64,000 nucleotides of DNA from Shigella phage ESh15. Of this stretch, positions 1,722 to 59,280 are shown one piece after another. Below the pieces are notes generated by a model, which saw only the letters and a program-made list of their open reading frames with translations, was not told where the DNA came from and ran no database searches. Position 1 is the stretch's first letter. Each line of letters starts with the position of its first letter. The position numbers were made by a program, and so were the translations under genes. Location of the stretch: sequence record ON528725, one strand, 5' to 3'.

Positions 1722-3526
1722 TGAAACAAAATATTAAAATTGGTAACGTCGTTGATGACGGACAAGGCGATTACCTTCGTCGAGGTGGTGAAAAAATAAA
1801 TGAGAACTTTGACGAAATCTATTATGAATTAGGTGATGGTGAAGTTCCTTATGCAGCTGGTGCATGGAAGACCTATGATGCGGCTGATGGTCTTAATCTT
1901 AAGGCGGCTTGGGGTAAATCTTATGCAATTAATACTACTTCTGGACGGGTTTCGGTAAATCTTCCTAAAGGGACAATTGCAGACTATAATAAAGTTATTC
2001 GTGCTCGTGACGTATTTGCAACTTGGAACATTAACCCTGTTACTTTAATTCCGGCAAACGGAGACACGATTAAAGGTTCTTCATCTCCGGTAGAAATTAA
2101 CGTTCAGTTCTCTGATTTAGAATTAGTTTATTGTGCTCCTGGACGTTGGGAATACATCAAGAACAAACAAATTGATAAAATAGTTAGCTCTGACATTAGT
2201 AATGTTGCTCGTAGAGAATATCTGGTTGAAACCCAAGGCCAGACCGATTTCATGGATGTTTTTAATGGGACCTCTTATAACGTTAACAACATTCGCGTAA
2301 AACATCGTGGCAACGAATTGTATTATGGTGATGTATTCAGTGATAATAGTGATTTTGGTTCTCCAGGCGCTAATCCTGGTGAGCTGGTTGCACTTGATGG
2401 ATTTAATATTAGATTACGCCAACCATGTAATGTTGGGGACACTGTACAAATTGAGACATTCCTAGATGGTGTTTCTCAGTGGCGTAGTTCATATACTCGT
2501 CGCCAAGTTCGCATTTTAGATAGTAAATTGACTGCTAAAAAGTCTATTGATGGAAGTATTTACGTCACTGATTTGAGTACGTTCCGATCTATTCCATTTA
2601 CAGCATTTGGTATTAATCCTACAGAACCACCTAACCCGAATTCATTAGAAGTTCGCTTCAATGGTATTCTCCAAGAATTAGCTGGTACTGTTGGAACTCC
2701 TATTTTCCGTTGTGAAGGTGTAGATGCTGATTCTGAAGAGTCATGCGCTAATCTCGGTGGGACATGGACTCAATCGTATACAGATTATGCGATTGAATAT
2801 ACTGATAATATCCCTAGCGCAATTCTGTTTGACCGTCAATTTGAAGACCAAGACATTATTACCATCACATGGTTTAATAACGATTTAGGAACTCTTCTTG
2901 AAATGGAAGAAATCCTTGATGTCGCTGATGAGAAATATGTTTCTCAAGGGTCTAACATTGAAATTACTGGTGATGTTGCATTAACCGATTTCGATAAAAT
3001 TGGATGGCCTAATGTAGAACCTGTTCCTAAGTATGAACGTGAATTCTCGACTATCTCAGCAATATTTGATACAATTTATCCTGTCGGGACTATTTACGAA
3101 AATGCGGTTAACCCTAATAATCCGGCCACTTATTTAGGTTTTGGTTCGTGGAAAATTTGGGGACAAGGCAAAGTATTAGCAGGTTGGAATGATGACGCGT
3201 CGGATCCTAATTTTGCATTAAATAATAATGACCTTGACATCAATGGTAACCCTACTCATACCGCAGGTGGTACCGTTGGTGTAACAACCATCACATTAGA
3301 AAATGCTGATTTACCAGCTACGCAAACCGATGAAAAGGTTCTTATTTCTGATGATAATGGTACAGTAATTATAGGCGGTTGCCAATATGACCCGGATGCA
3401 GAAGGTCCTATTTACACTAAATATCGTGAAGACCATGCAAAGACTAATGGATCTCATGTTCCAGCGCGTTCTATAACTAATATTCAGCCATCTATAACTG
3501 TATACCGTTGGGTAAGGATTGCATAA
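1721..3526 (+). CDS. 10: gp10 baseplate wedge subunit and tail pin
   Basis: 601 aa vs T4 gp10 602 aa; start overlaps gene 9 stop (TAATG); synteny. Confidence 0.93.
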
Positions 3527-4185
3527 TGACTGTACTTAATACAAAGGCGGGAGTTATTTCCCGTCATGCTGATTTTTTGAATTACAGAAAAAATCCAGCT
3601 CAAATTGATGTTTTAAACAACCAAGCTGTAGGTTCCGTGACTATTTCTCAGTTAGCTCGTGGTTTTTATGATGCTAACGTAGAATCTGCAATAAATGATG
3701 TCCATAATATGGCACGAGCTGATATTGGTACTGTTATCACAAACACTTCAGGCATATCGCCTGAAGGTACAGCACAAGTTGATTATTGGACTTTTTCTGG
3801 TGATGTTCTCGACGATACTTTGGCCCCTGGAACACCGGTCGTTATTAACGTATTTGGACTTGCTGTTAAAGCAACAATCGGTATGACTGATAACGAATTA
3901 ACTGCACAAGTTCGTATAGCTTTACAAGAAGCCATTGCTAATCAAATCGCTATTTCTTCTTATAAAGACCATCCGTCCGAAGGTAATAAACTTCAGGTGA
4001 CATATTTAGATAACCAACGTCATGTGTTGCCAACATACGCTTCGTTTGGTGTAACAATTTCGCAAGAAATTTTGTCTGAAGCAAAATCTGGGTACGGAAC
4101 ATGGAATTTATTGGGTGCCCAAACGGTTACTCTCGATAACCATAATACTCCTACCGTTTTCTACCACTTTGTGAGAGCCTCATGA
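3526..4185 (+). CDS. 11: gp11 baseplate wedge subunit and tail pin
   Basis: Start reassigned to the ATG overlapping the gene 10 stop; sequence matches recalled T4 gp11 (NKAGVISR..., [15 protein letters not shown]). Confidence 0.92.
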
Positions 4186-41675: not shown

Positions 41676-42293
41676 CTACTTAACGAAATTAATTTCTACC
41701 GGATGAACAACAGGTTGAGCAGTGATATATTGAGTAATTGCTTTCATGACTAGAGCTTCAGAACCAGGATTTTTCTCAACGAATTCACGTGCTTGGTTAT
41801 GAGCTTCAAGTTCACTTAGTAAACCGCTTCGTTGGCATCCACGGTCTTGAGTACCCTGTTCAGATAAAAAGACGACGATGTATTTTTCGTCATCATCATA
41901 CGGTTTAGACGGTTGAGCAAATGTTCCTTTACTTCCGAAAGGAGAGTTATGCCGCCACATATCACCGTGAGGAGTTTCAACCTTCGTGTATTCATGCGGT
42001 CCATTTTTCTTAGTTTCTTTCCATGGAACTTCATGGACCTTAGGGTTAGGACATTCAATAAAATGCTCATCTAAATCGGTAGAGAATATTAAAGTAAAAC
42101 AATTACTGAATTTACCAGCACCTGCCTGATAAATTTTACCTTCAGAAGTTCTAATTTCACAAACTGAGCCGGCATCAGTAACTTCTAAAACTTCAAAAGG
42201 CTCGATAAGGTCATATGAGAACATGTTTTTAAGGCGTGGAGTAATATCCCCATTTTTAAAATTCATTTTATAAAAAGTATTAACTTTAAACAT
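41676..42293 (-). CDS. Hypothetical protein, 205 aa
   Basis: ORF with GAGGAA RBS; preceded by an intercistronic hairpin at 42305-42320. Confidence 0.65.
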   Translation of the reverse strand: MFKVNTFYKMNFKNGDITPRLKNMFSYDLIEPFEVLEVTDAGSVCEIRTSEGKIYQAGAGKFSNCFTLIFSTDLDEHFIECPNPKVHEVPWKETKKNGPHEYTKVETPHGDMWRHNSPFGSKGTFAQPSKPYDDDEKYIVVFLSEQGTQDRGCQRSGLLSELEAHNQAREFVEKNPGSEALVMKAITQYITAQPVVHPVEINFVK

Positions 42294-42328: not shown

Positions 42329-42694
42329 TTAGATATCAAATTCATTAAGAACTACATCAAAGATTGCTTCGAGATGTTCAGGTTTAGCTCGGTTGCTCAG
42401 GATATGACGAATCCAAGTTTTAACCAGAAGTTTACGATTATCACCATTCCAGCAAGGATGAGTACCTAAATCACGCTGACGGAAATCATCATCTAATGCA
42501 ATTTTAAAATTTGAACCTTCCATCGTGATTGAAACCGTGATACCATTTTCAAATCGCATATAAACGTAATTAGGAGTCATGCACTGTTCGATTTCACAAA
42601 CTGTACCGTTTTTGTGTTTCCATAAGCAAATAACTTCAGAAGAACCAGCGATACCGTTAGAAACATATTTACGTTCGAAGTTGATGTAGTTCAT
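42329..42694 (-). CDS. Hypothetical protein, 121 aa
   Basis: ORF with own early-type promoter; shares a CMTP motif at the same position as the neighbouring 122-aa ORF. Confidence 0.65.
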   Translation of the reverse strand: MNYINFERKYVSNGIAGSSEVICLWKHKNGTVCEIEQCMTPNYVYMRFENGITVSITMEGSNFKIALDDDFRQRDLGTHPCWNGDNRKLLVKTWIRHILSNRAKPEHLEAIFDVVLNEFDI

Positions 42695-42735
42695 TTTATT
42701 CTCCAGATGTTTAAGTTGTTTGTTGGTACAGGTCT

Positions 42736-42764
42736 ATAATAACATAACCTGTACCAAAGTAAAC
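42736..42764 (-). promoter_or_regulatory. Early-type promoter GTTTAC-N17-TATTAT flanked by an 8-bp inverted repeat
   Basis: Minus-strand GTTTACtttggtacaggttatgtTATTATagacctgtacc; inverted repeat GGTACAGG/CCTGTACC brackets the -10. Confidence 0.5.
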
Positions 42765-42768
42765 TGTT

Positions 42769-43137
42769 TTATGCAACTTTAATCCAATTGTCTAAATTTA
42801 AAACACCTTTGGCTTTCATTTTTTCGATCAGGTTATCTGCTGTAATGCGTCCATTTTGATACCATGTAACATCTTCAGAGTAACCAGTTTCTTCGTCAAC
42901 ATATGTTTCTGAACGAATTTTACCGGTAATAATAGTTTTTAATTCGTATGTGTCACCTGTGAAAAAGTTTGCTAACACAATTTTCCAAGAGAAATCATCA
43001 GAAGGACCTTCAGGGGTCATACAACTTACGATCTCAAATTGCTCTTTGTATAACATCCACTGGAATTCTTTAATTTCGATAGCTTTATAACCGTCGTGGT
43101 CTTTACATTTGATGTATGAGTTCAGATTGATTTTCAT
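42769..43137 (-). CDS. Hypothetical protein, 122 aa
   Basis: ORF with own early-type promoter. Confidence 0.65.
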   Translation of the reverse strand: MKINLNSYIKCKDHDGYKAIEIKEFQWMLYKEQFEIVSCMTPEGPSDDFSWKIVLANFFTGDTYELKTIITGKIRSETYVDEETGYSEDVTWYQNGRITADNLIEKMKAKGVLNLDNWIKVA

Positions 43138-43179
43138 TTTGTTCTCCAGTTTGTTTTATTGATTAGGTGGTACAAGTCT

Positions 43180-43208
43180 ATAGTAACACATCCTACAGGA
43201 GAGTAAAC
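43180..43208 (-). promoter_or_regulatory. Early-type promoter GTTTAC-N17-TACTAT
   Basis: Minus-strand GTTTACtctcctgtaggatgtgtTACTATagac. Confidence 0.5.
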
Positions 43209-43230: not shown

Positions 43231-43262
43231 CTAAACGCACAAAAGGGAGACCGAAGTCTCCC
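43231..43262 (-). terminator. Rho-independent terminator after the 59-aa gene (minus strand)
   Basis: Minus-strand GGGAGAC-TTCG-GTCTCCC followed by TTTTGTGCGTTT; identical hairpin to the gene 23 and gene 32 terminators. Confidence 0.8.
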
Positions 43263-43267
43263 TAAAA

Positions 43268-46367: not shown

Positions 46368-46604
46368 TTATAGTGTTCCATATACTCGAGTTGCTTCAAC
46401 AAGACCATCACTGCCTAATTTAAGATTAGTAATTTGGTCACCATCTTTAGGATTAACGATTATGAGAAAAGAACGTGGAGATTCTTGAATAACTCGTAAT
46501 GTTGCATCCTGGAAACGTTCAGACACTTTATTGATGAGTGCTTGAGCAAATTCTTTTACTTTAATCTGAAATTCGTGTACTGTAATTGGATTTTCACTTA
46601 GCAT
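46368..46604 (-). CDS. Hypothetical protein
   Basis: 78-aa ORF with GAGGAA RBS and early-type promoter upstream. Confidence 0.6.
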   Translation of the reverse strand: MLSENPITVHEFQIKVKEFAQALINKVSERFQDATLRVIQESPRSFLIIVNPKDGDQITNLKLGSDGLVEATRVYGTL

Positions 46605-46632
46605 TTCGATTTCCTCATTTGTTGGTAGAGTT

Positions 46633-55645: not shown

Positions 55646-57341
<1,696 letters not shown>

Positions 57342-57351
57342 TTTATTCTCC

Positions 57352-57420
57352 TTAACAAGCTTTAATCAAAAGATATAAACAAACTAACATAACCACTGCC
57401 ATAATATAAGGTGCTAACAT
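57352..57420 (-). CDS. Candidate 22-aa hydrophobic micropeptide
   Basis: ATG with GAGGAA RBS 6 nt upstream; product MLAPYIMAVVMLVCLYLLIKAC; stop sits just upstream of the next gene's RBS. Confidence 0.35.
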   Translation of the reverse strand: MLAPYIMAVVMLVCLYLLIKAC

Positions 57421-57481
57421 TTTGATTTCCTCTCATTTGTTTTGATAGGACTACTATAACATAGCCCTATCTTGTTGTATA

Positions 57482-57871
57482 CTACTTTTTAAAAGTTTTT
57501 TGCAAAAGTTCGATGATTTCGTCGACGTTAGTTTCATCTACTACACAATGAATTTTTGTTACACCTAAAACTATGCCTTCGTTAACCGGTTGAGGCTTTT
57601 CTAAAGTTACCTCGTTGAAGTATTTGAATTCTTCAGGGTAAAGTTCAAAATATGTCTCTTCCGGACCACCAGCAGAACATTCTGTGCCATCTTCCATGGT
57701 TACACATACTACGTTTAGGCATCCATCATAATCATGTTCCATTCCATTTACAACAAAACTTGGACCATGCTTCTCAAGCAAATCTAGCATAAAGCCGTTA
57801 TTGTACGGGGCCTCTTCGATGAATTCATCTTTAAATAAAGGGTTAAAGATATAAGTTTTTCCGATTTCCAT
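57482..57871 (-). CDS. Hypothetical protein, paralogue A (position of T4 frd.2/frd.3)
   Basis: 129 aa; shares GKTYI.NP, LDL.E.HGPSFVV, YFELY..EFK.F.EV with the adjacent 120-aa ORF. Confidence 0.7.
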   Translation of the reverse strand: MEIGKTYIFNPLFKDEFIEEAPYNNGFMLDLLEKHGPSFVVNGMEHDYDGCLNVVCVTMEDGTECSAGGPEETYFELYPEEFKYFNEVTLEKPQPVNEGIVLGVTKIHCVVDETNVDEIIELLQKTFKK

Positions 57872-57900
57872 TTTGATTTCCTCGTTTGTTGATTAATAAA

Positions 57901-58263
57901 TTATTTTATTCCAAAAATTTCTTTAATTTCTGCAATCACATCTCGAGCATTTTCTACAGTAACTTCAAAGATGAGTGACTGTTTAGAAATAGACTCTGGA
58001 GATACCTCGATGAAGTGTTTGAACTCATCATCGTAAAGCTCAAAATATGAACCTGGAGGACCATCAAAACCAAATTCAGTACCGTCTTGCATAGTTACGC
58101 TGGTTACGCATTTATCATCATCGTACTCAGTGTTCATGTCCTTTACAACAAAACTAGGACCATGGAGCTCAATCAAATCCAACATATCAGCATTTTGTGG
58201 GCATTCATTGGCAAATGCAGCTTTACATTCTGGATTGATGATGTACGTTTTTCCAATTTTCAT
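57901..58263 (-). CDS. Hypothetical protein, paralogue B (tandem duplicate of 57482-57871)
   Basis: 120 aa; colinear similarity to the neighbouring ORF; own early-type promoter and RBS. Confidence 0.7.
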   Translation of the reverse strand: MKIGKTYIINPECKAAFANECPQNADMLDLIELHGPSFVVKDMNTEYDDDKCVTSVTMQDGTEFGFDGPPGSYFELYDDEFKHFIEVSPESISKQSLIFEVTVENARDVIAEIKEIFGIK

Positions 58264-58293
58264 TTCGATTTCCTCATTTGTTTTGATAGGTCT

Positions 58294-58322
58294 ATAGTAT
58301 CATATCTCAAGGAGAAGTAAAC
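58294..58322 (-). promoter_or_regulatory. Early-type promoter GTTTAC-N17-TACTAT
   Basis: Minus-strand GTTTACttctccttgagatatgaTACTATagacc. Confidence 0.5.
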
Positions 58323-58344: not shown

Positions 58345-58371
58345 TACTCAAAAGGGAGACCGAAGTCTCCC
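58345..58371 (-). terminator. Rho-independent terminator after gene 32 (minus strand)
   Basis: Minus-strand GGGAGAC-TTCG-GTCTCCC followed by TTTTGAG; third copy of the same hairpin. Confidence 0.8.
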
Positions 58372-58377
58372 GATTTA

Positions 58378-59280
58378 TTATAGACCGGCTAACAGGTCAT
58401 CGAGGTCACCATCATCAGAGGATGAGGTAGAGCTCATGAAGTCATCTTCAGTTTTTGCAGAGCTAAAGGCTTCCATGTCTTTATCAAAATCGTCAAGGTC
58501 AGAAGCAACTTTATCTGCAACAGAAGCTGCTGCGGCTGCTGCACCACCAAGAGCGGCAGTACCAAGAACCTTAGCGAAAGATTCATTTAATTTTTCAAAG
58601 GATTTGAACTGGTCTTTAGCCGTCAAAGTAGTAAGGTCTACCATCTGGTCATATAGTTCTTTCTGGAATGCTTCGTCATTAATACGAGGAATTTCAGATT
58701 GACCCAAGAATTTAGATTCGTCATAGTTGCTAAAACCGGAAACCTGCTTAGCTTTCAGAACGAAGTTAGCACCTTCAAACGGACAAGTAACATCAACTGG
58801 AGTTTCACCCATTTCGGTATCAACTGCAATCATTGCATTGATTTTGTCCCAAATCTTTTTACCGAAACGATATTTAAATACTTTACCTTCGTTATCTGGA
58901 GCTTGAGGGTCTTTAACAACCAGAATATTAGCCCAATAAGAAGTTTTACGTTTCAGTTGAGAATATTCAGTTTTGTTTGTATTGTACAGGTCATTTTTAC
59001 TAATGTACTGACATACAGGACAAGAGTCGTAATCACCATGTGTAGAAGAGCAATTTTCAATATACCATTTACCATTTTTCTTGAAACCGTGGTTAACAAG
59101 AATTGCAAATGGTAGTGCATCATCAGTTTTTGCTGGCAAGAAACGAATTACCGCTTGACCATTACCTGATGCATCTAGCTTCAGCTTCCATTCGCCTTTA
59201 TCTTCTGAAGAGAAACCTTTGTTACCGTTCAGTTTAGCCATTTGAGCAGCGAGGTCAGCAGTAGATTTACGTTTAAACAT
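58378..59280 (-). CDS. 32: gp32 single-stranded DNA-binding protein
   Basis: 300 aa vs T4 301 aa; near-identical to recalled T4 gp32; acidic C-terminal tail. Confidence 0.97.

What the first reader, a model, noticed from the sequence alone, without database searches (positions are those of the whole stretch)
57482..58263. Tandem paralogous small genes with duplicated promoter-leader modules between frd and gene 32
The 129-aa and 120-aa adjacent minus-strand ORFs are colinear paralogues (GKTYI.NP, LDL.E.HGPSFVV, M.DGTE, YFELY..EFK.F.EV). Their upstream regions also share a block (ttgatttcct..catttgttttgatagg followed by a TA-rich -10-like element), so a promoter-RBS-ORF cassette was duplicated. 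A similar arrangement exists at 42329-43208, where two 121/122-aa ORFs share a CMTP motif at the same position and near-identical promoter leaders. This pattern is typical of fast-evolving host-interaction genes.
Basis: seen in the sequence. Interest (0 to 1): 0.5.

Follow-up and report, generated by a model that had tools for sequence, protein, structure and literature searches.

The report
Two Frd.2-family early genes in tandem
Two neighbouring small genes of a T4-like phage are true relatives of each other, both belonging to the already catalogued Frd.2 family of early proteins of unknown function, and the repeated "promoter" blocks around them are the ordinary early-promoter cassettes that T4-like phages scatter between such genes.

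Summary
The paralogy is real. The 129-aa and 120-aa ORFs are 55% identical over 92 residues (E=1e-29) and both pass Pfam FRD2 (PF03197). The 129-aa gene is the orthologue of T4 frd.2. The 120-aa gene is a second copy with a different C-terminal module ("class II").

The promoter claim is only partly right. The shared block with the -10 lies upstream of the 120-aa gene and downstream of the 129-aa gene. There it drives an unannotated 22-codon ORF and frd.1. The 129-aa gene has only a Shine-Dalgarno leader. The same 20-nt leader also precedes an unrelated gene 11.6 kb away, so these look like dispersed T4 early-promoter/stem-loop cassettes of the PeSL type.

Sister Mosigviruses carry the two genes in the opposite order or lack the second copy, which fits cassette shuffling.

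The comparison locus at 42329-43208 holds gp30.7 and gp30.8 homologues. They belong to different Pfam families and are not demonstrable paralogues.

Both Frd.2 copies are under purifying selection. They are strongly acidic (pI 4.3) and are predicted to have an SH3/LSm-like N-terminal barrel, as published for T4 Frd.2.

Tandem frd.2a/frd.2b is already annotated in phage SP18. The finding is ordinary: already known, low-to-moderate interest.

The parts
58354..58371 (-). Gene 32 terminator hairpin GGGAGAC-TTCG-GTCTCCC followed by TTTT. It forms the stem-loop half of a PeSL-like composite element.
   Evidence: The identical hairpin sequence also lies at about 43250-43267 in front of the gp30.8 promoter.
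58294..58321 (-). T4-type early promoter P1: AAAAAG-TTG-TTTACT, N16, TACTAT.
   Evidence: It fits the T-even PeSL promoter consensus TTTACW..TAYWAT of PMC4122927 with a 16-nt spacer. The exact N17 consensus occurs 7 times in the window, all on the minus strand, against 0.25 expected.
58264..58293 (-). 5' leader with Shine-Dalgarno: AGACCTATCAAAACAAATGAGGAAATCGAA.
   Evidence: The 3' 20 nt, including the ATG, recur exactly at 46602-46621.
57901..58263 (-). frd.2b: 120-aa Frd.2-family paralogue with a class II C-terminal module (..NARDVIAEIKEIFGIK).
   Evidence: Pfam FRD2 76.4 bits. 88-94% identical orthologues occur in FP43, LF82-31, ATK47 and phage 55. dN/dS 0.10-0.13. AF2 pLDDT 88.6.
57872..57900 (-). 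29-nt intercistronic spacer with SD/leader only (TTTATTAATCAACAAACGAGGAAATCAAA). It has no promoter and no structure.
   Evidence: (MFE 0 kcal/mol).
57482..57871 (-). frd.2: 129-aa orthologue of T4 Frd.2 with a class I C-terminal module (GVTKIHCVVDETNVDEIIELLQKTFKK).
   Evidence: Pfam FRD2 107.5 bits. 42% identical to T4 Frd.2 with a near-identical tail. 100% identical to a protein of Shigella phage ESh15. AF2 pLDDT 85.9.
57453..57481 (-). Early promoter P2 (TATACA, N17, TG-n-TATAGT). Its -35 abuts the TAG stop of frd.2, so the last frd.2 codons (AAAAAG TAG) double as the A-rich upstream element.
   Evidence: The homologous element in phage SA21RB was annotated by its depositors as 'T4 early promoter' overlapping a 'terminator'.
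57444..57471 (-). 11-bp hairpin GATAGGGCTAT/GTAGTCCTATC spanning the spacer and -10 of P2.
   Evidence: MFE -16 kcal/mol, z=-5.5. 98.9% of cells are paired and 3 pairs have compensatory changes across 8 phage copies.
57421..57443 (-). Second copy of the leader (AAAACAAATGAGAGGAAATCAAA).
   Evidence: family D5, 84% over 32 nt.
57352..57420 (-). Unannotated 22-codon hydrophobic ORF, MLAPYIMAVVMLVCLYLLIKAC. This is the gene actually served by the second promoter-leader copy.
   Evidence: It is conserved in T4 and other Tequatroviruses, and 11 of 17 variable columns fall at codon position 3.
57093..57341 (-). frd.1 (DUF5417), 82 aa.
   Evidence: Pfam PF17438, 120.5 bits.
   Evidence: PF06919, 175.9 bits.
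   Evidence: PF06019, 152.4 bits. Not significantly similar to the gp30.7 homologue.

Best explanation
The window comes from a Mosigvirus-like T-even phage. Between gene 32 and frd it carries two early genes of the Frd.2 family (Pfam FRD2).

The proteins. Each encodes a small, very acidic cytoplasmic protein. An N-terminal SH3/LSm-like beta-barrel of about 88 residues is joined by a short linker to a strand-plus-helix C-terminal module.
- The 129-aa gene is the orthologue of T4 frd.2 (class I tail).
- The 120-aa gene is a second copy with a class II tail. This tail type is the only one found in the single-copy phages examined from several other genera.
- So the pair is an old class I / class II pair. 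Its N-terminal domains have been kept similar, or re-assorted, by recombination. It is not a fresh duplicate.

Expression (inferred from sequence).
- Transcription from gene 32 stops at a UUCG hairpin.
- Early promoter P1 then transcribes frd.2b and frd.2 as a bicistron.
- A second early promoter, embedded in the frd.2 stop codon and wrapped in an 11-bp hairpin, restarts transcription for a 22-codon ORF, frd.1, frd and td.

Genome dynamics (inferred from comparison). The promoter/hairpin/leader modules are dispersed, near-identical regulatory cassettes of the PeSL type. Homologous recombination between them inserts, deletes and reorders the small genes they flank. This explains three states seen in relatives: 32-2b-2 (this window, ATK47, phage 55), 32-2-2b (FP43, LF82-31) and 32-2 (moha).

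Function (speculative). The acidic barrel most likely binds a basic protein partner of host or phage, rather than RNA directly. The two tails give the paralogues different partners or oligomeric states.
For: Shown by tool results:
- Paralogy and family membership.
- Orthology of the 129-aa ORF to T4 Frd.2. T4 frd.3 is unrelated.
- The two C-terminal classes and their distribution.
- Of 11 loci with more than one copy or with a class II single copy, every multi-copy phage has one class I copy plus at least one class II copy. These are the window, ATK47, phage 55, FP43, LF82-31, SP18, IME281, MN04 and LTH01.
- The N-terminal domains of the window's two copies fall in one 99%-bootstrap group, separate from the T4-type N-terminal domain.
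- Paralogue dS is about 1.0, against 1.26-1.5 for window-T4 orthologues of gp32, frd.1 and td.
- Chimeras P0004 and P0005 combine a 2b-type N-terminal domain with a class I tail.
- Purifying selection on both copies.
- Foldseek against viral models hits GoF (3.3e-4) and T4 MotB.1 (1.6e-3). This agrees with Kim et al. 2025 (PMC12152347).
- pI 4.28, net charge -14 and -17.
- Promoters, hairpins and leaders. Depositor annotation of the same element as promoter plus terminator.
- Opposite gene order, or absence of 2b, in close relatives, with the leader repeat at every junction.
- The promoter-leader part matches 6-9 places per genome in 10 of the 13 sampled Mosigvirus genomes, and 2 places in the other 3.

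From the literature:
- PeSL concept and mini-circle evidence: PMC2839356 and PMC4122927.
- T4 frd.2 is an early gene. It was the only 'Fit' gene of unknown function in a T4 CRISPRi-ART screen (PMC11879866).
Against: - No transcription data for this phage. The promoters and the bicistronic reading are sequence inference. P1 has a 16-nt spacer and P2 departs from the consensus at two positions.
- The second hairpin overlaps the promoter instead of lying upstream of it, as in the published PeSL figures. It also lacks a U tract, so terminator function is doubtful.
- The class II grouping rests on a module of about 26 residues, 25-44% identical between genera. It could be convergent.
- The order swap could have arisen by routes other than cassette recombination.
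- T4 frd.2 amber mutants plate normally (PMC12152347), which conflicts with the CRISPRi-ART fitness call.
Confidence: 0.72

Rival explanations
1. Recent in-situ tandem duplication of one complete promoter-RBS-ORF cassette, followed by divergence.
For: - 55% aa and about 75% nt identity over the first 90 codons, extending 19 nt into the leader.
- In FP43 and LF82-31 both copies end with TAG fused to an early promoter and are preceded by the same leader.
- The N-terminal domains of the two copies fall together in one 99%-bootstrap group of Mosigvirus-type barrels, as separate subclades of 84% and 98% support.
Against: - The last ~28 residues are 16% identical. The 120-aa tail is closer to the tails of SP18 frd.2b, IME281, Bp7 and LTH01 (25-44%) than to its neighbour's tail.
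- There is no promoter before the 129-aa gene in this window.
- The leader is generic, with an exact copy at 46602-46621.
- Similarity stops abruptly at about codon 90.
Confidence: 0.2
2. The second copy was acquired horizontally as a ready-made cassette from another phage lineage and inserted next to the resident frd.2. It would be a xenologue, not a duplicate made in this lineage.
For: - Only about 21 of 569 FRD2-positive phage records have a close (>80%) orthologue of the 120-aa gene.
- It is absent from the Mosigvirus moha and occupies two different positions in relatives.
- The frd.2 3' end plus hairpin promoter is found almost unchanged in the Vequintavirinae-labelled phage LTH01, so such cassettes do move.
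- The segment with the 22-codon ORF is Tequatrovirus-like.
Against: The N-terminal domain of the 120-aa gene is closest to Mosigvirus-type N-terminal domains, not to those of any other genus sampled. No donor lineage was identified.
Confidence: 0.25
3. The similarity is chance or low-complexity, or one copy is a decaying pseudogene.
For: None found.
Against: - E=1e-29 with composition-adjusted BLASTP.
- Both copies pass the Pfam gathering score.
- Both have intact ORFs in several phages with dN/dS 0.10-0.29.
- Both fold confidently in silico.
Confidence: 0.01

Closest known systems
T4 Frd.2 (NP_049852; Pfam FRD2, PF03197)
   Same: - Same locus, between frd.1 and gene 32.
- Same length (128 vs 129 aa).
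- 42% identity overall, with a nearly identical C-terminal tail GVTKIHC.VDE.NVDEIIELL.KTFKK.
- The same stop-codon-embedded hairpin early promoter follows it, and then the same 22-codon ORF.
   Different: The N-terminal barrel is of a different sequence type, 34% identical. T4 has the unrelated frd.3 where this phage has the second Frd.2 paralogue.
frd.2a / frd.2b of Shigella phage SP18 (Gaprivervirus), and the tandem Frd.2 pairs of Dhakaviruses IME281 and MN04
   Same: - A tandem pair directly downstream of gene 32.
- One class I and one class II tail.
- Already annotated as frd.2a/frd.2b or 'Frd.2 conserved hypothetical protein' x2.
   Different: - Their two N-terminal domains are only 37-43% identical to each other, against 57% here.
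- The class order differs: SP18 has class I first, IME281 and MN04 have class II first.
- In IME281 and MN04 the copies are separated by only 2-4 nt, without a promoter.
GoF / MotB.1 / Frd.2 'LSm-like fold' family of Tevenvirinae (Kim et al. 2025, PMC12152347)
   Same: - Predicted N-terminal five-stranded bent beta-barrel.
- Foldseek links the 129-aa model to GoF and T4 MotB.1.
   Different: That paper treats one Frd.2 per phage and, in the passages read, does not describe class I/II tails or tandem copies. RNA-related activity was shown there only for the GoF(D25Y) mutant, not for Frd.2.
PeSL (promoter-early stem-loop) cassettes of T4-type phages (Arbiol et al. 2010, PMC2839356; Comeau et al. 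2014, PMC4122927)
   Same: - Composite stem-loop + sigma70-like early promoter + SD + ATG.
- Repeated between small non-essential genes of a hyperplastic region.
- Adjacent to insertions, deletions and displacements between close relatives.
   Different: In the second element here the hairpin encloses the -10 instead of lying upstream of the promoter, and it has no U tract. Recombination or mini-circle formation was not observed, only inferred.
FeoA / DtxR-type SH3-like domains

Membership tests
Pfam FRD2 (PF03197), T4 Frd.2 family | Sequence match to the family HMM above the gathering score (29 bits). | tested here: met
   129-aa ORF: 107.5 bits. 120-aa ORF: 76.4 bits. Both match nearly the full model. 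PHROG 622 matches at 6.7e-35 and 8e-26.
Pfam FRD2 (PF03197), T4 Frd.2 family | Genomic position in the frd - gene 32 interval of a T4-like phage, on the early (minus) strand. | tested here: met
Pfam FRD2 (PF03197), T4 Frd.2 family | T4-type (class I) C-terminal tail GVTKIHC.VDE.NVDEIIELLQKTFKK. | tested here: inconclusive
   Met by the 129-aa ORF (86% identical to T4 over the tail). Not met by the 120-aa ORF (16%), which has the class II tail. This tail is my own subdivision of the family, not a Pfam criterion.
GoF/MotB.1/Frd.2 LSm-like fold family (PMC12152347) | Predicted N-terminal bent antiparallel beta-barrel, SH3/LSm-like, with structural similarity to GoF and MotB.1. | tested here: met
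GoF/MotB.1/Frd.2 LSm-like fold family (PMC12152347) | RNA-related activity. | not testable with these tools
   Not shown for Frd.2 in the paper either. The strong negative charge (pI 4.28) argues against direct RNA binding.
PeSL regulatory cassette | Sigma70-like early promoter; T-even consensus TTTACW-N17-TAYWAT. | tested here: inconclusive
   P1 is TTTACT-N16-TACTAT: the hexamers fit but the spacer is 1 nt short. P2 is TATACA-N17-TATAGT: one mismatch in each hexamer. Seven exact matches elsewhere in the window all lie on the minus strand, against 0.25 expected.
PeSL regulatory cassette | Stem-loop (terminator) just upstream of the promoter. | tested here: inconclusive
   Met for P1: the gene 32 hairpin with a T run lies about 32 nt upstream of the -35. 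For P2 the conserved hairpin overlaps the spacer and -10 and has no T run.
PeSL regulatory cassette | SD and start codon at the 3' end; repeated copies in hyperplastic regions next to indels between close relatives. | tested here: met
   Presence, absence and order of frd.2b and of the 22-codon ORF differ between relatives exactly at these elements.
PeSL regulatory cassette | Demonstrated promoter and terminator activity, and recombination or mini-circle formation between copies. | not testable with these tools
   Needs reporter assays and inverse PCR on infected cells, as in PMC2839356.
   BLASTP gives E=0.035 for an 8-residue match only. The ORFs fall in separate Pfam families, PF06919 and PF06019, with no cross-hit at E<=0.1, and in separate PHROGs.

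The most novel reading that the evidence does not exclude
Class I and class II Frd.2 proteins could be an ancient two-component pair. Examples would be a hetero-oligomer, or a decoy and its effector. Their acidic SH3-like barrels would co-evolve, being homogenised within a phage lineage but diverging fast between lineages, because they track a variable host target such as a nucleic-acid-binding defence or takeover factor. Lineages such as T4 would have lost the class II partner. The swapped gene order in sister Mosigviruses would then be a live example of promoter-cassette (PeSL) transposition of a functional gene.
Probability: 0.12. Interest if true: 0.55.

Novelty: already known. Interest (0 to 1): 0.25.

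Why it matters
Frd.2 has recently drawn attention for two reasons. It was the only gene of unknown function scored as fitness-relevant in a T4 CRISPRi-ART screen (PMC11879866). It is also one of three founders of a predicted LSm/SH3-like fold family (PMC12152347).

Many T4-like phages carry two versions with different C-terminal modules, while T4 keeps only one. That gives experimenters natural domain-swap material, including naturally occurring chimeras. It also offers a possible reason why single-gene knock-outs give conflicting phenotypes.

The 32-2b-2 versus 32-2-2b order swap between near-identical phages is a clean, small test case for promoter-cassette-mediated gene shuffling.

None of this changes the basic picture. 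The genes, the family and the regulatory cassettes are all of known kinds.

Tried and rejected
- T4 frd.3 as counterpart of the 120-aa gene: no similarity.
- A single consensus hairpin for all 12 frd.2-downstream elements: rejected. Two hairpin types exist in different registers (pairing columns sum to 55 for the GATAGGGCTA type and to 50 for the T4 GGGTAGTAGTG type). Only the 8 copies in the first register were counted.
- Relationship of the nearby 205-aa ORF (41676-42293) to FRD2: PHROG 622 hit at 4.4e-5, but my FRD2 HMM finds nothing at E<=1 and hhalign gives 0.3% probability. Left open.
- Locating the source contig through the 100%-identical ESh15 protein: not on record.
- The T4 genome review (PMC150520), for mapped early promoters: not held.
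- Literature search for 'FRD2 phage': only irrelevant hits.
- Positive selection: not supported by gene-wide dN/dS. Site-wise tests were not run.
- The word-indexed protein search with the 120-aa query alone gave only 5 hits. A profile search was needed.

Full report
**What is in the sequence.** The region reads on the minus strand as a typical T-even early block.
- Gene 32: 58378-59280.
- A GGGAGAC-UUCG-GUCUCCC terminator hairpin: 58354-58371.
- A 120-aa ORF: 57901-58263.
- A 129-aa ORF: 57482-57871.
- A 22-codon ORF: 57352-57420.
- frd.1 (DUF5417): 57093-57341.
- frd: 56503-57090.
- td: 55646-56506.

The neighbours are 93-99.7% identical in protein to those of Mosigviruses FP43, LF82-31, ATK47 and phage 55. 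The 129-aa protein is 100% identical to a protein of Shigella phage ESh15.

**The paralogy is real.**
- BLASTP gives 51/92 identities, E=1e-29, one single-residue gap and no low-complexity sequence.
- The DNA is 74-78% identical over about 290 nt at a constant 392-395-nt offset.
- Both proteins pass Pfam FRD2 (PF03197) and PHROG 622.
- The 129-aa ORF is the orthologue of T4 Frd.2: 42% identity overall, with a nearly identical C-terminal tail.
- T4's frd.3, which occupies the position of the 120-aa ORF, is unrelated.

**The promoter-leader claim needs correcting.**
- One copy (58264-58304) is upstream of the 120-aa gene.
- The other copy (57421-57463) lies downstream of the 129-aa gene's stop codon. 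It sits upstream of the 22-codon ORF.

Upstream of the 129-aa gene there are only 29 unstructured nucleotides carrying the SD/leader. In this phage the two paralogues are therefore most likely one bicistronic unit driven by P1 (TTTACT-N16-TACTAT, 58294-58321). P2 (TATACA-N17-TATAGT, 57453-57481) restarts transcription for the micro-ORF, frd.1, frd and td. These are sequence inferences.

The -35 of P2 abuts the TAG stop of frd.2. An 11-bp hairpin encloses its -10.
- The hairpin folds at -16 kcal/mol, z=-5.5.
- Across eight phage copies 98.9% of cells pair, and three pairs show compensatory changes.
- The depositors of phage SA21RB annotated the homologous element as a T4 early promoter overlapping a terminator.

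**The modules are dispersed, not locus-specific.**
- The 20-nt leader CAAATGAGGAAATCGAAATG recurs exactly at 46602-46621, in front of an unrelated 78-aa ORF.
- The T-even early-promoter consensus of the PeSL papers occurs 7 times in the window, all on the minus strand, against 0.25 expected.
- A relaxed scan finds 14 such sites on the minus strand and 1 on the plus strand.
- The promoter-leader half of the element matches 6-9 places per genome in 10 of the 13 sampled Mosigvirus genomes and 2 places in the other 3.

This is what Arbiol et al. 2010 and Comeau et al. 2014 describe as PeSL cassettes. Those are composite stem-loop/early-promoter/SD units that flank small genes in hyperplastic regions and mediate their insertion, deletion and displacement.

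**Comparative anatomy fits cassette shuffling.** The arrangements found are:
- This window, ATK47 and phage 55: 32 - 2b - 2.
- FP43 and LF82-31: 32 - 2 - 2b. Here each gene ends in TAG fused to a hairpin promoter and is preceded by the leader.
- moha: frd.2 only.
- T4 and PE37: frd.3 - frd.2.

The leader repeat sits at every junction. In ATK47 the 120-aa gene is present but unannotated. The frd.2 3' end plus hairpin promoter also follows the third of three tandem FRD2 genes in the Vequintavirinae-labelled phage LTH01.

**Not a simple fresh duplication.** Alignment of 36 family members shows two tail classes.
- Class I is GVTKIHC.VDE.NVDEIIELLQKTFKK. It occurs in T4, in Mosigvirus frd.2, in the window's 129-aa gene, in one of the two copies in SP18 (first), IME281 and MN04 (second), and in LTH01 copy 3.
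- Class II has the pattern N-A-x-[DE]-x-[IV]-x-x-I-K-x-x-F. It occurs in the window's 120-aa gene, SP18 frd.2b, IME281 and MN04 copy 1, and LTH01 copies 1-2. It is also the tail of the single genes of Bp7, phiR1-RT, Merlin and KPV15, where Merlin departs from the motif at one position.

Every multi-copy phage examined has one class I copy plus at least one class II copy.

The N-terminal domains tell a different story.
- The window's two N-terminal domains are 57% identical. They fall in one 99%-bootstrap group apart from the T4-type N-terminal domain, which is 34-35% identical to them.
- Their dS of about 1.0 is lower than the window-T4 orthologue dS of 1.26-1.5 for gp32, frd.1 and td.
- Database proteins P0004 and P0005 are outright chimeras: a 2b-type N-terminal domain with a class I tail.

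I read this as an old class I/II pair with later exchange of N-terminal domains. A recent duplication with tail replacement, or horizontal acquisition, remain possible.

**Selection and abundance.**
- Orthologue dN/dS is 0.10-0.13 for the 120-aa gene and 0.18-0.29 for the 129-aa gene. The neighbours (td, frd, frd.1, gp32) give 0.01-0.22.
- Both genes are functional. frd.2 is the most divergent gene of the locus, but no gene-wide positive selection is seen.
- About 569 phage records carry FRD2, at 650 places in all, so roughly one genome in seven has more than one copy.
- Only about 21 records have a close orthologue of the 120-aa gene.
- The family is small: 42 clusters at 50% identity among 1.84 billion representatives.

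**What the proteins look like.**
- AF2 gives confident models, with pLDDT 88.6 and 85.9. Each has a strand, two helices, then four strands and a short helix forming a barrel (residues about 1-88), followed by a linker and a C-terminal helix.
- Foldseek against viral models recovers GoF and T4 MotB.1.
- This reproduces Kim et al. 2025 for T4 Frd.2.
- All family members checked are very acidic: pI 4.26-4.40, net charge -14 to -17. I therefore favour binding of a basic protein partner over direct RNA binding. This step is inference only.
- Published phenotypes conflict. CRISPRi-ART scores T4 frd.2 as a fitness gene, while an amber mutant plates normally.

**The second locus.** ORFs 42329-42694 and 42769-43137 are homologues of gp30.7 and gp30.8. 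They belong to different Pfam and PHROG families and share only an 8-residue match, E=0.035. Their upstream regions are similar because both are early promoters with hairpins. They are not a demonstrated paralogous pair.

**Verdict.** It falls under known headings: the Frd.2 family, tandem frd.2a/frd.2b as already annotated in SP18, and PeSL-type early-promoter cassettes. Three small additions come from this work:
- the class I/II tail distinction;
- the order swap between sister Mosigviruses;
- a conserved, unannotated 22-codon ORF behind the second promoter.

Noticed in passing
window 57352-57420 (-); T4 locus L001 about 3513-3581 (-): An unannotated 22-codon hydrophobic ORF (MLAPYIMAVVMLVCLYLLIKAC) with a strong SD lies directly behind the hairpin early promoter. 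It is conserved in T4 (MFAPYIMAAVMLVCLYLLIKAC; no CDS is annotated there in NC_000866), and the segment is carried by about 194 phage records. 11 of 17 variable alignment columns fall at codon position 3. It is deleted in FP43, moha, ATK47, phage 55 and PE37. In Dhakavirus UP19 the ORF and its promoter sit between cef and motB instead.
   Followed up: partly
window 57476-57500 (-); also 41675, 48787, 51376, 35849 (-): The stop codon TAG of the upstream gene is fused to the -35 of the next early promoter (..AAAAAG TAG|TATACA / TAG|TTTACA). The last codons of frd.2 (K-T-F-K-K-stop) therefore double as the A-rich upstream element. This may contribute to the extreme conservation of the class I tail.
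   Followed up: no
window 46602-46621 (-) and 48728-47 (-): An exact copy (and a copy with 2 mismatches) of the frd.2b leader CAAATGAGGAAATCGAAATG precedes unrelated small ORFs in the pseT region.
   Followed up: yes
window 41676-42293 (-): A 205-aa ORF next to gp30.7 has an N-terminal region that hits the FRD2 PHROG (phrog_622, E=4.4e-5) and phrog_3710. It is not supported by my FRD2 HMM or by hhalign (0.3%). It could be a distant member of the GoF/Frd.2 barrel superfamily.
   Followed up: partly
window 42574-42597 (-) and 43014-43037 (-): The gp30.7 and gp30.8 homologues share E-I-x-x-C-M-T-P at residues 34-41 and 35-42 and are nearly the same length, but show no other detectable similarity. 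A remote relationship was not excluded by profile-profile or fold comparison.
   Followed up: partly
L004 (ATK47, KT184309) 1985-2347 (-): The 120-aa Frd.2 paralogue is present and intact in ATK47 but is not annotated in the GenBank or RefSeq records.
   Followed up: yes
L008 (phage LTH01, PP430345) 2501-3705: Three tandem FRD2 genes (two class II, one class I) sit next to DNA polymerase fragments in a 141-kb phage labelled Vequintavirinae. They are followed by the same hairpin promoter as in Mosigviruses. This points either to cross-family transfer or to a mislabelled or chimeric record.
   Followed up: partly
proteins P0004, P0005 (metagenomic/Logan contigs): Natural chimeras: a 2b-type N-terminal domain (68-70% identical to the 120-aa ORF) is joined to a class I T4-type tail.
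   Followed up: partly
L003 (moha) 2084-2149 (-): In moha the hairpin after frd.2 keeps its stem, but the loop is the reverse complement of that in the window (CTATAACA vs TGTTATAG). This removes the -10 on the coding strand. It looks like an inversion of the loop between the inverted repeats.
   Followed up: no
L010 (phage 55) 2336-2740 (-); P0008, P0010-P0023: A 134-aa frd.2 allele carries a 4-residue tandem repeat (DEFK-YFIE-YFTE) at the end of the barrel. It is common in Mosigvirus entries.
   Followed up: no
window 57330-57420 versus Mosigvirus relatives: The segment holding the 22-codon ORF matches Tequatroviruses over its full length (84-87%). Other Mosigviruses match only the promoter-leader half. 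The window is therefore mosaic at this point.
   Followed up: no
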